64,000 nucleotides of DNA from NCBI RefSeq assembly GCF_040938485.1, contig NW_027271335.1:620001-684000 (forward strand), written 5' to 3'. Positions 23,601-64,000 of the stretch are shown here, one piece after another. The position numbers are program-made. Numbering within the stretch: position 1 is the stretch's first letter; every line of letters starts with the position of its first letter. The stretch is from Diadema antillarum. Taxonomy: Eukaryota.

Positions 23601-26600
23601 TTTCTCCCTTTTTTTCCTCTCTTTTTTTCCTCTTCTTTTTCCTTTCCTTTTCTCTCTTTTTCCTCTTCCCAATCATTTTGATGTCAGTTGACATCGGTTC
23701 GTTTATTGTGTTTTATATTGATGTTTTGTGTATTTTTCTGAGGGTCCCATATCGTACAAGCTTTGCTTCTTAGTGGGACCCTCCACTTCCATCCTCATCC
23801 TTAGTTGACTTGTATTATACGCTTTATGTATTTAACAAAGATGTAATCACATCTACTTTTCACTTTCATAATTTTCTTATGTACCTTTTCAAGTTTTGTT
23901 CTGTATCACAAATGTCCTGTGTATACGCAATGTACATAAAGTTCTTTGTTCATTTTGATGGAGGTGAAAATAAAGTTGAAAGTTGATATAGAGAAATACA
24001 ATTTTACCTACTAAAAAGCAAAGCTTGGTGTTTATAGGTCCCAACAAAAAGCCTAGTGTGGAGAAGATGCGCGGGCCTGTTGCGAGTAGGGATTTTCCAG
24101 CACGCAGGAGAATTTTCTGCGGGCGGAAAAGTATGTTTGCGAGTTTCCTACTTGTGCCTTACTGCTAGACGCGTGCTACTTGCGTGTATTCCGTGTGACC
24201 TGCGTGAGAGCTTCGAAATCGACCCGTTTTCAGTTACGAGCGACACACGGGGACTGCGAAGTACCTGCGTGGGAGTCGCCTTTGAGGTGCTGCCGCTCAA
24301 AGGCCTCCTACTGGTGTTCTGCGTGTACCTCCGCGGGCAAACCCCGCGACTCACCCGGAAAGAGTTTTGCATGTGTAACCCCACCAAAATTTGGGTTACT
24401 AAGATTTCTCCAGAAATGTCGTCAGACTAGATTCCTACTTCCTTGGAAGACCCATGGTCACTGTTATCACCACCCCCTCCATTCATCCCTCCTCTGACGT
24501 CCGTACCCCACCTGTTTTCCAACAACCCCTCGACCAGTGTACTAGTAACCCCCAAGATTAGTCTTAAGATTTCCCCTTCAGCCTTTGACCCCAATAGCCA
24601 ATGTCCAATTGTAAGCCTGTGTGTATTGAGACTGGTCAAGCCCTGTGAAACGCCCCTGCTGGTGTTAGACTATGTAGGTGTAATAAAACTCAAGGATGGA
24701 GCAAGCTAGCCAGTCTAGGGATATTGTTTTAAGCACCCCTCCCTTTTGTTGGTGTGTAGGCACATCAAGAGAAACGAAAGGACCATGTCTCAGAAGAGGA
24801 AGGTCATTCTTGCTAGGACAAAGTAGTAGTTGCTTTGGGATTTAGGGACAGTGTCCTACCATGGGCAAAGCCTATACAGAGTGGACTGGTTCTAACTGTA
24901 GACCAACATTTTCTGTGACAATGACGTAGAGTGCACGTCTAGCCCAAATTCTGCCCCCTCCTATTCCTTTCTTCTCACATACCCCCCCCCCCCTAATTTC
25001 CAATGAACTGTTTAGGCTAGCTTTGCGTGTGCCTTAAAGTAGAGTAACTCCATACATTACTAGATTTACTTTGCTCGTGTTACCTTTTATATTACAGATA
25101 CTGTTGTGCTACTATGATCAATGGCTGAAAGGATATGACTTTTTGCAAGATTATTATTTGATATGTCATGTGTTCAGAACAAAGTGTGATCCACGCACTT
25201 CAGCATAAGAGATATGTATGTGCAGTGGTTATGTTTAATACATCATTTATGCAAATGAGATATAATTATGTCTCTATATTCTAATTGAGTGCTTTTATGA
25301 CTTATGCTATACGATTTGTCTAGTATGTTAACTAGATCGGTGTTTGCATGAGTATAAACAATGTGTTATATAGCTATGCTGGTTAGGCAGCAGCTCTAGT
25401 GACCAAGGTCACAGGAGTGCAACTTTAAAGCCCTGTAGGCAGAATGCTCGAGAGTGACTGGAAAGCCTGTCGTTACTGCCCTTGGTCAATGTTAAGACTT
25501 TGTCTGGCCAAGTGGATGGTCAGTACGTCAGTAATGTTCCTGGAAGTCAAGGGGAATGAGTGACCTCTAGCCAATGAGGCAGACTTTGAATGATGTCATA
25601 GAAACATGAACCAATGAAATTTCTGCTGGTCAGTTAACTTCCTGGAAGTTTCTGATTTTCTCGAGAAAGTTTGTAATATTAACATTTTACAGAGAGACAG
25701 AAAATTATAAAAGCCCATAGCTTTGGAGCAAATAGGCATATCTGCTTCCTGCCAGCGCTTTGAGGCCTGCACCCACTTTGCTTGTTACATCGACTGTGTG
25801 ATCCAGAAAGTTTTTTCACACATTTATCTGCTGAGAGGTTACCACAAAACACTGGTAGACCCCCACAAGCATCAGCTGTATTGTTATATACAATTTTTAT
25901 GTGCCTGTGATACAACTGGTTGTGGCACGTACATCCACTGACTGCCGTGTGGAGCAACTTGTAGTGAAAACGAGTGTTGGCTCTTTTGACTAGGTAAGTC
26001 ATTGTATTTCTCATGTTATGTATTGCATTGGAGAGTGTTTGTAGTTATGAACCCCAATCCATAGACATGGAGGTTGCTTGTTAAGAAGAAGACTCTGATA
26101 TCATGTATATAAATTCCGAAGTTATCATATGTTATGCCAAAAGTATTGATGATTGATGATTGTTGCTTGTATATTATTTGAAGATATATTGCAATGCACT
26201 TCAAGGTATTTGCGCTTCGAATGTTTTATGAATGGACATGATTAGGCATACACTCAAGTTCATTATTAGACAGATGAAATTGGGAAACTGACTTGGCATT
26301 AGAAGTCAGATTTTAATTTGATTACATACATATTGAAATGCCCGGTAGACCCTCACACTCAGAGAAAGTGAGGCTATGCTCGTAAACATTGAGGTCTACA
26401 ATGTGCAGCACCCCCCCCCCCTCGTCTGAACTGACAGATTTATGTCCACTGACCGTTCCCTGTGAGTGACAGAGGTCACTGCACTATTGAATTGTGGAAT
26501 GTTTAACTCTAGAGGGGGAGGACTAGCCACTAGATGTGAAGAACCTTGCAAAGAACTAAATGTGAGGAATAGTTGTGCCATTGTGAATATAAAAAGGTTA

Positions 26601-62600: not shown

Positions 62601-64000
62601 CAAAGTGTGATCCACGCACTTCAGCATAAGAGATATGTATGTGCAGTGGTTATGTTTAATACATCATTTATGCAAATGAGATATAATTATGTCTCTATAT
62701 TCTAATTGAGTGCTTTTATGACTTATGCTATACGATTTGTCTAGTATGTTAACTAGATCGGTGTTTGCATGAGTATAAACAATGTGTTATATAGCTATGC
62801 TGGTTAGGCAGCAGCTCTAGTGACCAAGGTCACAGGAGTGCAACTTTAAAGCCCTGTAGGCAGAATGCTCGAGAGTGACTGGAAAGCCTGTCGTTACTGC
62901 CCTTGGTCAATGTTAAGACTTTGTCTGGCCAAGTGGATGGTCAGTACGTCAGTAATGTTCCTGGAAGTCAAGGGGAATGAGTGACCTCTAGCCAATGAGG
63001 CAGACTTTGAATGATGTCATAGAAACATGAACCAATGAAATTTCTGCTGGTCAGTTAACTTCCTGGAAGTTTCTGATTTTCTCGAGAAAGTTTGTAATAT
63101 TAACATTTTACAGAGAGACAGAAAATTATAAAAGCCCATAGCTTTGGAGCAAATAGGCATATCTGCTTCCTGCCAGCGCTTTGAGGCCTGCACCCACTTT
63201 GCTTGTTACATCGACTGTGTGATCCAGAAAGTTTTTTCACACATTTATCTGCTGAGAGGTTACCACAAAACACTGGTAGACCCCCACAAGCATCAGCTGT
63301 ATTGTTATATACAATTTTTATGTGCCTGTGATACAACTGGTTGTGGCACGTACATCCACTGACTGCCGTGTGGAGCAACTTGTAGTGAAAACGAGTGTTG
63401 GCTCTTTTGACTAGGTAAGTCATTGTATTTCTCATGTTATGTATTGCATTGGAGAGTGTTTGTAATTATGAACCCCAATCCATAGACATGGAGGTTGCTT
63501 GTTAAGAAGAAGACTCTGATATCATGTATATAAATTCCGAAGTTATCATATGTTATGCCAAAAGTATTGATGATTGATGATTGTTGCTTGTATATTATTT
63601 GAAGATATATTGCAATGCACTTCAAGGTATTTGCGCTTCGAATGTTTTATGAATGGACATGATTAGGCATACACTCAAGTTCATTATTAGACAGATGAAA
63701 TTGGGAAACTGACTTGGCATTAGAAGTCAGATTTTAATTTGATTACATACATATTGAAATGCCCGGTAGACCCTCACACTCAGAGAAAGTGAGGCTATGC
63801 TCGTAAACATTGAGGTCTACAATGTGCAGCACCCCCCCCCCCCCTCGTCTGAACTGACAGATTTATGTCCACTGACCGTTCCCTGTGAGTGACAGAGGTC
63901 ACTGCACTATTGAATTGTGGAATGTTTAACTCTAGAGGGGGAGGACTAGCCACTAGATGTGAAGAACCTTGCAAAGAACTAAATGTGAGGAATAGTTGTG

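What the first reader, a model, noticed from the sequence alone, without database searches (positions are those of the whole stretch)
24374..64000. At least 39.6 kb head-to-tail array of a Gypsy element with shared LTRs
Seen: LTR-int-LTR-int-LTR-int-LTR-int-LTR, one LTR per junction, each junction perfectly PPT|LTR|PBS, only a handful of differences per 9.4 kb, array still running at the window end. Established: normal integration gives one internal region with two LTRs and a TSD. Shared-LTR tandems arise by unequal LTR-LTR recombination or from 1-LTR circles/concatemers, and usually have two units. Inference: four or more units carrying identical coding lesions point to DNA-level amplification (serial unequal exchange or rolling-circle copying) of one provirus. 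Such an array could read through as multimeric RNA or act as a piRNA-type source.
Basis: partly seen in the sequence, partly recalled or inferred. Interest (0 to 1): 0.8.

Follow-up and report, generated by a model that had tools for sequence, protein, structure and literature searches.

The report
Tandem Gypsy retrotransposon array, sea urchin
Four near-identical copies of a 9.4-kb Gypsy-type retrotransposon lie head to tail with a single long terminal repeat at each joint, most likely in a Diadema sea-urchin genome; arrays of this kind are already known from flies, plants and yeast, so it is a clean but ordinary example.

Summary
From 24374 to the window end there are four full units (9390, 9250, 9391 and 9391 bp) and 2205 bp of a fifth LTR, at least 99.9% identical. 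The LTR is 3087 bp; a 565-bp repeat in the self-comparison only marks a 140-bp deletion private to LTR2. Each LTR starts TGTAACCC and ends GGGTTACA. A purine tract abuts its 5' end, and a TGG-starting primer-binding candidate lies 5 nt past its 3' end, in 4 of 4 junctions. The host is an echinoderm: gag is 96-99.8% identical to RefSeq proteins of two Diadema species. gag is intact. gag/pol is a natural -1 frameshift arrangement. pol has one in-frame stop and at least one frame change, the same in all four units. All five private substitutions sit in the edge unit, and units 2 and 3 share a derived residue. That favours stepwise unequal exchange over a single burst. The window ends inside LTR5, so "still running" is not shown. 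Unit number needs read-level support. This is a new member of a known kind; interest is low to moderate.

The parts
24374..27460 (+). LTR1 (3087 bp), left edge of the array; the flank immediately before it ends GCATG (candidate target-site copy, cannot be checked)
   Evidence: Self-match starts exactly here. 8-nt terminal inverted repeat TGTAACCC/GGGTTACA is the best of all CA-ending sites scanned in 24600-27700. Carries 3 private substitutions.
27461..33763 (+). Internal region 1 (6303 bp): spacer, primer-binding candidate, gag, pol, purine tract
27466..27484 (+). Primer-binding-site candidate of unit 1 (19 nt, starts TGG, 5 nt after the LTR). The same string is at 36716, 46107 and 55498.
   Evidence: 4 exact matches in the window, 0.01 expected by chance
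27638..29071 (+). gag of unit 1, 477 aa, intact: PNMA-type capsid domain plus CCHC zinc knuckle
   Evidence: Pfam PNMA E 6e-38, zf-CCHC E 5.6e-07. 0 internal stops. 96-99.8% identical to Diadema RefSeq proteins.
28990..33721 (+). pol of unit 1 (weak protease match, RT, RNase H, integrase, C-terminal tail). It lies in the -1 frame to gag with an 82-nt overlap. Broken: 1 in-frame stop and at least 1 frame change.
   Evidence: Pfam RVT_1, RT_RNaseH, Integrase_H2C2, rve; Asp_protease_2 below cut-off; lesion counts; overlap and heptamers
33752..33763 (+). Polypurine tract of unit 1 (GAAAGGGGAGGA), abutting LTR2. The same tract is at 43002-43013, 52393-52404 and 61784-61795.
33764..36710 (+). LTR2 (2947 bp), shared by units 1 and 2; carries a private 140-bp internal deletion
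36711..43013 (+). Internal region 2 (6303 bp), identical to internal region 3. gag 36888-38321 is intact. pol 38240-42971 is broken in the same way as in unit 1.
43014..46101 (+). LTR3 (3088 bp), identical to LTR4
   Evidence: 0 substitutions, 0 indels over 3088 nt
46102..52404 (+). Internal region 3 (6303 bp). gag 46279-47712 is intact. pol 47631-52362 is broken in the same way.
52405..55492 (+). LTR4 (3088 bp)
55493..61795 (+). Internal region 4 (6303 bp), 1 substitution from regions 2 and 3. gag 55670-57103 is intact. pol 57022-61753 is broken in the same way.
61796..64000 (+). LTR5, first 2205 of about 3087 bp; cut by the window end

Best explanation
One copy of a young echinoderm Ty3/Gypsy retrotransposon, with a 3.1-kb LTR, PNMA-type gag and pol already broken, was integrated with its 5' LTR at 24374. 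It was then multiplied at the DNA level. Out-of-register recombination between its two long LTRs, on sister chromatids or homologues, gave a dimer with a shared middle LTR. After that the whole 9.4-kb unit served as homology for further unequal exchanges, which added inner units one at a time. The result is at least four internal regions and five LTRs. Shown: the anatomy, the clean junctions, the identity of the units, the shared lesions and the uneven variant pattern. Inferred: the recombination mechanism, the order of events, and that the assembled unit number is the true one.
For: The array begins at the very base that follows the purine tract in later units, so its left edge is an LTR end and not a random duplication breakpoint. 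One LTR lies at each of 4 of 4 inner junctions, with no extra bases. Units are at least 99.9% identical. By contrast, 9 of the 10 other cluster members differ at 11-19 of 477 residues (96-97.7% identical) and one differs at 1 residue. Lesion counts in pol are the same in 4 of 4 units. All 5 private substitutions lie in edge unit 1 (3 in the LTR, 2 in pol), internal regions 2 and 3 are identical, and LTR3 equals LTR4. P is about 0.004 for all five falling in one of four equal-aged units. One unit-1 private residue is derived (0 of 30 relatives have it, 30 of 30 have the other state). Neighbours 2 and 3 share a derived residue (1 of 29 against 22 of 29). This gives a nested history (U1,(U4,(U2,U3))) that fits the physical order. 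The same mechanism is the standard account in print: McGurk and Barbash 2018, Fig. 1A and text (PMC5932611, passages), and the rice tandems and their discussion (PMC11899658, sections 10 and 13).
Against: The right end of the array lies outside the window, so neither a closing LTR nor a target-site duplication can be seen. The nested history rests on a single shared derived site and five private ones. Gene conversion would give the same picture. Consensus polishing of an assembly can make inner copies look identical while the edge copy, anchored in unique flank, keeps its variants. Structure alone cannot tell unequal exchange from re-entry of a one-LTR circle by homologous recombination.
Confidence: 0.6

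Rival explanations
1. The assembly overstates or misstates the unit number. A tandem with a shared LTR exists, but the number of near-identical 9.4-kb units in the contig is not what the chromosome carries. The high identity of the inner units partly comes from consensus polishing.
For: Over 20,290 bp the array matches itself shifted by one unit, with 2 mismatches and 3 gaps. Reads shorter than a unit therefore cannot place the inner units. The one D. antillarum assembly paper that turned up in my search (passages read) reports HiFi reads of mean length 6.8 kb, patching with Nanopore reads from other individuals, and short-read polishing (PMC13511894). I did not establish that the window comes from that assembly. 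Of the 1-bp length differences, 3 are in C11-13 runs, a typical place for read errors; the other two 1-bp gap columns lie beside the LTR2 deletion in the alignment and may be alignment effects.
Against: Units carry their own marks: a 140-bp deletion in LTR2 only, 5 private substitutions in unit 1, and a variant shared by units 2 and 3 only. The array is joined to 24 kb of unrelated flank. A read of about 4 kb or more can span LTR plus both internal edges, so the shared-LTR junction itself is easy to support.
Confidence: 0.2
2. The multimer was made before integration, during one round of reverse transcription. It could arise by template switching, by read-through transcription of a one-LTR circle, or by recombination among cDNA molecules. 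It then went in as one piece.
For: Junctions are clean and lesions are shared in all units. Ty1 multimers that arise from cDNA are known in yeast mutants (PMC4378997, passages). The rice and Cassandra papers both discuss insertion of ready-made tandems.
Against: Units made in one event would be of equal age, yet all 5 private substitutions are in unit 1 (P about 0.004), and units 2 and 3 share a derived state that unit 4 lacks. By inference, an RNA or cDNA of about 40 kb is far beyond what a particle of an element with a genomic RNA of no more than about 9 kb should hold.
Confidence: 0.08
3. Units were added by extrachromosomal circles. One-LTR circles, or rolling-circle concatemers made from them, recombined back into the resident copy through LTR or internal homology, each event adding units with a shared LTR.
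For: The product would look exactly like what is seen: one LTR per junction and no target-site copies inside. One-LTR circles are a known by-product of retrotransposition, as cited in the rice paper's discussion and in Fig. 1B of PMC5932611.
Against: Nothing in the window points to circles. A single rolling-circle concatemer would give equal-aged units, which the variant pattern does not fit. Repeated single re-entries cannot be told from unequal exchange with these data.
Confidence: 0.1

Closest known systems
[quoted passage not shown]
   Same: Adjacent elements share one LTR. The structure is explained by ectopic recombination between LTRs and is seen as a first step towards satellite-like arrays that grow by unequal exchange.
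   Different: Those were found as junction reads in population short-read data and are mostly dimers of low copy number. Here a four-unit array is read end to end on one side, in an echinoderm, and with a 3.1-kb LTR.
Tandem LTR-RT insertions of rice and other plants (Morales-Diaz et al. 2025, PMC11899658; abstract, sections 10 and 13 and passages read)
   Same: Alternating LTRs and internal regions that start with an LTR. Most are gypsy-type, with very high identity among units. Unit number varies between haplotypes. The authors leave the origin open between recombination and insertion of a ready-made tandem.
   Different: The host is a plant. The worked examples have two internal regions and three LTRs and are flanked by 5-nt target-site duplications. 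Here there are four or more internal regions, and the right flank and target-site duplication are unseen.
Long tandem arrays of the non-autonomous Cassandra element (PMC7215508; passages read)
   Same: [quoted passage not shown] Growth by unequal crossing-over is proposed, and multi-unit transcripts were detected.
   Different: Cassandra is under 1 kb, non-coding, and carries a 5S-like pol III promoter. The unit here is 9.4 kb and has gag and pol.
Ty1 multimeric arrays of budding yeast (cited in PMC4378997; passages read; details of the primary papers are recalled, not read)
   Same: Head-to-tail arrays of a whole LTR element.
   Different: These form from cDNA in particular mutant backgrounds and integrate as multimers. 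The variant pattern here argues against a one-step origin.
Tandem endogenous-retrovirus-like arrays at kangaroo centromeres (mentioned in the discussion of PMC11899658; primary paper not read)
   Same: An animal example of LTR-element tandems explained by LTR-LTR recombination.
   Different: Centromeric location and a retrovirus-class element. Nothing in the window shows a centromeric setting.

Membership tests
Ty3/Gypsy (Metaviridae-type) LTR retrotransposon | pol domain order RT, then RNase H, then integrase | tested here: met
   Pfam on the longest pol ORF (1107 aa): RVT_1 at 339-498, RT_RNaseH at 612-717, Integrase_H2C2 at 890-945, rve at 960-1056. Named relatives are called Gypsy retrotransposon integrase-like protein.
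Ty3/Gypsy (Metaviridae-type) LTR retrotransposon | Aspartic protease upstream of RT | tested here: inconclusive
   Asp_protease_2 at E 1.8e-4 and 22.6 bits, below the curated cut-off of 24.3.
Ty3/Gypsy (Metaviridae-type) LTR retrotransposon | LTRs with TG...CA ends and a short terminal inverted repeat | tested here: met
   TGTAACCC...GGGTTACA. An 8-nt inverted match is the best of all CA-ending sites scanned in 24600-27700, and it is identical in 4 of 4 complete LTRs.
Ty3/Gypsy (Metaviridae-type) LTR retrotransposon | Primer binding site complementary to a host tRNA just after the 5' LTR | tested here: inconclusive
   A 19-nt TGG-starting string lies 5 nt after the LTR and 154 nt before the gag ATG in 4 of 4 units. 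Complementarity to a tRNA could not be tested: the window has no tRNA gene and no echinoderm tRNA set is on hand.
Ty3/Gypsy (Metaviridae-type) LTR retrotransposon | Polypurine tract abutting the 3' LTR | tested here: met
   GAAAGGGGAGGA directly before TGTAACCC at 4 of 4 junctions.
Ty3/Gypsy (Metaviridae-type) LTR retrotransposon | gag with a capsid-like domain and a CCHC knuckle | tested here: met
   PNMA E 6e-38 and zf-CCHC E 5.6e-07.
Shared-LTR tandem array of an LTR retrotransposon | Exactly one LTR between neighbouring internal regions, with no target-site copy or foreign DNA at inner junctions | tested here: met
   4 of 4 purine-tract/LTR joints and 4 of 4 LTR/primer-site joints are identical and gap-free.
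Shared-LTR tandem array of an LTR retrotransposon | The array starts and ends with an LTR, and the whole is flanked by one target-site duplication | not testable with these tools
   The left edge is an LTR start. The right edge is beyond base 64000, and no other DNA of this genome is reachable.
Chromovirus branch of Ty3/Gypsy | Chromodomain at the integrase C-terminus | tested here: not met
   No chromodomain family among the Pfam matches of the pol ORFs. The tail ORF matched only a PAM2 motif.
Envelope-bearing (errantivirus-like) Gypsy elements | A third ORF for an envelope protein after pol | tested here: not met
   The only ORF after the integrase core aligns colinearly with the pol C-terminal tail of 5 of 120 relatives. 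No envelope family was found.
Domesticated PNMA-type host gene | gag-derived gene standing alone, without LTRs or pol | tested here: not met
   gag sits between a primer-site candidate and pol inside LTRs in all 4 units. The RefSeq name 'paraneoplastic antigen Ma3-like' is an annotation of a transposon gag.

The most novel reading that the evidence does not exclude
The locus is a satellite in the making, caught early. It would be an array whose inner units are being duplicated now, so that unit number differs between Diadema individuals and haplotypes. It carries along an intact, annotated PNMA-type gag as a multi-copy gene while pol is dead. That would be a route by which a capsid gene could be amplified and kept apart from the rest of its element. 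A gag protein one residue different is recorded on a contig of the same length as the one holding the window's gag. That may mean further units lie beyond the window.
Probability: 0.1. Interest if true: 0.55.

Novelty: new member of a known kind. Interest (0 to 1): 0.3.

Why it matters
If the unit number is real, this is a well-resolved animal example, outside insects and mammals, of an LTR element turning into a tandem repeat. It has enough unit-specific marks to read the order of duplications. It also shows two practical points. In a shared-LTR array the LTR cannot be delimited by self-comparison. And transposon gag genes of this family are annotated as host 'paraneoplastic antigen' genes in two sea-urchin genomes. 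It does not change what is known about how such arrays arise.

Tried and rejected
(1) A 565-bp LTR. This was the first impression from self-BLAST. I rejected it because the 565-bp match ends only where unit 2 has its private 140-bp deletion, and no inverted terminal match or TGG-starting site lies there.
(2) A vertebrate host. I guessed this from the PNMA and SCAN gag domains and the fish, frog and turtle pol relatives. The gag search rejected it: the best named hits are sea urchins, sea stars and a crinoid.
(3) The gag/pol frame change as a shared lesion. Rejected: pol is in the -1 frame with an 82-nt overlap holding two in-frame X XXY YYZ heptamers, and the 3 of 4 closest pol relatives that lack a gag part start near the same point.
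(4) Tandem Repeats Finder cannot see a 9.4-kb period. It found only a 188-bp repeat in the flank.
(5) No copy or fragment of the unit lies in the 24-kb flank, and there are no internal repeats in the unit. Nothing notable was found in the LTR.
(6) Rfam at gathering scores gave 0 matches in the window. ARAGORN found 0 tRNA genes. The tRNA partner of the primer-site candidate therefore stayed untested.
(7) A MAFFT run timed out and was repeated with faster settings.
(8) DNA of other copies of this element could not be compared. The genome collection holds only bacteria and archaea and was not used. The phage, plasmid and E. coli collections are irrelevant.
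Full report
OBSERVATION. A self-comparison of the window shows a head-to-tail repeat from 24374 to the window end. Units start at 24374, 33764, 43014, 52405 and 61796, so the periods are 9390, 9250, 9391 and 9391 bp. Identity is 99.93-99.975% over alignments of 9,956 to 20,290 bp, with E = 0. The window has no N. Tandem Repeats Finder cannot see so long a period. In a MAFFT alignment of the four full units and the partial fifth, re-counted pairwise, the differences are:
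- 3 substitutions private to the first LTR;
- 3 variable columns in pol;
- one 140-bp deletion private to the second LTR;
- 1-bp length changes in two C11-13 runs of the LTR.
Internal regions 2 and 3 are identical over 6303 bp. LTR3 and LTR4 are identical over 3088 bp.

WHERE THE LTR ENDS. In an array with one LTR per junction, LTR plus internal region is simply the repeat unit, so self-comparison cannot delimit the LTR. The 565-bp match that stands out ends only because unit 2 has its private deletion there. I scanned every CA-ending position from 24600 to 27700 for an inverted match to the first bases of the array. The best is at 27460, where GGGTTACA mirrors TGTAACCC. Five bases later comes a 19-nt string that starts with TGG, and the gag ATG follows 154 nt after that string. 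That string occurs four times in the window, once per unit, against 0.01 expected by chance. The LTR is therefore 3087 bp (24374-27460) and the internal region 6303 bp. A purine tract, GAAAGGGGAGGA, abuts the first base of LTR2, 3, 4 and 5. All eight inner joints are identical and carry no extra bases. The array's left edge falls exactly on the LTR's first base, as an integrated element's would, and not on a random duplication breakpoint. I could not test which tRNA the 19-nt string pairs with, because the window has no tRNA gene and no echinoderm tRNA set is available. With a 3087-bp LTR, the last 2205 bp of the window are all LTR5. The window therefore does not show whether a fifth internal region follows.

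GENES.
- gag. gag (27638-29071 in unit 1) is a 477-aa open frame with a PNMA-type capsid domain (E 6e-38) and a CCHC knuckle. Its DNA is identical in all four units and has no stop.
- gag/pol junction. pol lies in the -1 frame. That frame opens 82 nt before the gag stop. The overlap holds two heptamers of the X XXY YYZ type in the right register. I read this as a natural -1 ribosomal frameshift site. That Ty3/Gypsy-derived genes such as mammalian PEG10 use -1 frameshifting is recalled, not tested.
- pol domains. The longest pol ORF (1107 aa) has RT, RNase H, an integrase zinc domain and an integrase core, in the Gypsy order. A protease match falls just below Pfam's cut-off.
- pol lesions. I ran tblastn with 8 of the 120 relatives listed against each unit. 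It gave one in-frame stop inside the pol homology in 4 of 4 units, and a direct count confirmed it. With all 120 relatives against the 3' end, 5 of them, including the 4 closest, align their C-terminal tails colinearly in a different frame. So pol is broken by one stop and at least one frame change, the same in every unit. I give no places.
- No envelope ORF and no chromodomain were found.

HOST AND FAMILY. The pol relatives are mostly fish, frog and turtle Gypsy elements at 46-56% identity, with three unnamed records at 65-73%. That made me think of a vertebrate at first. The gag search corrected this. The best hit, at 96% and the same length, is "paraneoplastic antigen Ma3-like" of the sea urchin Diadema antillarum. 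Next come Strongylocentrotus (56%), sea stars and a crinoid. The exact gag sequence is in the protein collection. Its 90% cluster has 11 members: the window's own protein, 7 other sequences from D. antillarum and 3 from D. setosum. They differ from the window's gag at 1 to 19 of 477 residues (one member, of 473 residues, is 96.0% identical by BLASTP). The window is therefore most likely from D. antillarum or a very close relative. The element belongs to a young, dispersed family whose gag is annotated as a host gene. The four array copies are far closer to one another (identical gag DNA) than to all but one of the other family members, so they descend from one copy. The exception differs at 1 residue and is recorded on a contig of the same length as the one that holds the window's gag. 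It may be a further unit beyond the window. I could not check this. The window is not human.

SURROUNDINGS. The 24 kb to the left hold no copy or fragment of the unit. They are full of other mobile elements: another Gypsy-type element on the minus strand, two LINE-like elements, and a nest of inverted repeats. Rfam finds nothing at gathering scores.

HOW IT AROSE. The structure is the one expected when the two LTRs of one integrated element pair out of register on sister chromatids or homologues and recombine. That gives LTR-int-LTR-int-LTR, after which the whole unit is homology for further unequal exchanges. This is the standard account in the literature:
- Fig. 1A and text of McGurk and Barbash 2018 (PMC5932611, passages);
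- the discussion in Morales-Diaz et al. 2025 (PMC11899658, sections 10 and 13);
- the Cassandra arrays (PMC7215508, passages).
The spread of variants does. All five private substitutions are in edge unit 1 and none are in units 2-4. If the four units were of one age, all five falling in one unit has P about 0.004. I aligned 30 of the 120 relatives to polarise the two amino-acid differences in pol. The unit-1 private residue is derived: 0 of 30 relatives have it, and 30 of 30 have the other state. Units 2 and 3 share a residue that 1 of 29 relatives have, while units 1 and 4 carry the one that 22 of 29 have. The history is thus nested, (U1,(U4,(U2,U3))), and agrees with the physical order. That fits serial duplication of neighbours and does not fit one rolling-circle or one reverse-transcription burst. 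The 140-bp deletion in LTR2 came later. Of the 3 pol substitutions, 1 is synonymous and 2 are not, and none makes or removes a stop. This argument rests on six sites. Gene conversion would give the same picture.

THE MAIN DOUBT. The array matches itself shifted by one unit over 20 kb, with 2 mismatches and 3 gaps. Only reads longer than a unit, or depth, can fix the unit number. The one D. antillarum assembly paper that turned up in my search (PMC13511894, passages) used HiFi reads of mean length 6.8 kb, patching with Nanopore reads from other individuals, and short-read polishing. I did not establish that the window comes from it. If it does, the shared-LTR junction is easy to support, because the LTR is 3.1 kb. 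The number of inner units and their perfect identity are much less certain. Unit-specific marks and the join to unique flank argue that the array is not a pure artefact.

COMPARISON AND NOVELTY. The element passes the tests for a Ty3/Gypsy LTR retrotransposon that I could run. It fails the tests for a chromovirus, for an envelope-bearing form and for a stand-alone domesticated PNMA gene (see the membership table). Shared-LTR tandems are in print for Drosophila, rice and other plants, Cassandra, yeast Ty1 and, as cited, kangaroo centromeres. Arrays of more than two units are in print too. Four literature searches listed no title or abstract on such an array in an echinoderm. I read listings only, 15 of 23 papers, and supplements were closed. 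I file this as a new member of a known kind. The 3.1-kb LTR is long for an animal Gypsy element (recalled, not tested). By inference, that length makes LTR-LTR exchange more likely.

UNCHECKED.
- The right end of the array and its target-site duplication.
- Read support and read depth.
- Other genomic copies of the element.
- The tRNA partner of the primer-site candidate.
- Transcription, read-through RNA and small RNAs.

Noticed in passing
window 1-4902, minus strand: A second, unrelated Gypsy-type element, cut by the window start and split into at least 3 ORFs. Its gag has a SCAN domain and a CCHC knuckle. The integrase zinc domain comes before RT and RNase H, a pol order I recall from the Gmr1-like group of deuterostome Gypsy elements.
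   Followed up: partly
window 7254-11527 (+) and 20142-23346 (+): Two LINE-like elements with endonuclease and reverse transcriptase domains. The first is in 5 ORF pieces and the second in 2. They are 68-70% alike at the DNA level in the RT part. The array starts about 1 kb downstream of the second.
   Followed up: partly
window 16245-17355: A G+C-rich nest of inverted repeats (260-nt arms 94% complementary, 173-nt arms 99%), foldback-like, with short GGCC-rich sub-repeats. The ORFs there have no Pfam match that passes its cut-off.
   Followed up: partly
window 17639-18069: A 188-bp tandem repeat, 2.3 copies, 96% matches, next to the inverted-repeat nest. A further 79-99-nt direct repeat lies at 19417 and 19731.
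   Followed up: no
3' tail of pol in each unit (within 28990-33721 for unit 1): The C-terminal tail ORF of pol matches the PAM2 motif, the poly(A)-binding-protein-interacting motif of ataxin-2 (E 6e-05, 22.9 bits against a cut-off of 20). This is unusual for a pol tail. It may be chance in a low-complexity stretch.
   Followed up: no
gag, 27638-29071 and its three copies: The gag of this transposon family is annotated as a host gene, 'paraneoplastic antigen Ma3-like/homolog', 7 times in D. antillarum and 3 times in D. setosum RefSeq. Counts of PNMA-like genes in echinoderm genomes are likely inflated by transposon gag genes.
   Followed up: partly
LTRs 1-5, two C-runs per LTR: Two C homopolymers of 11-13 bases per LTR vary in length between units. 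This could be real slippage or read error, and it is a useful place to test consensus quality.
   Followed up: no
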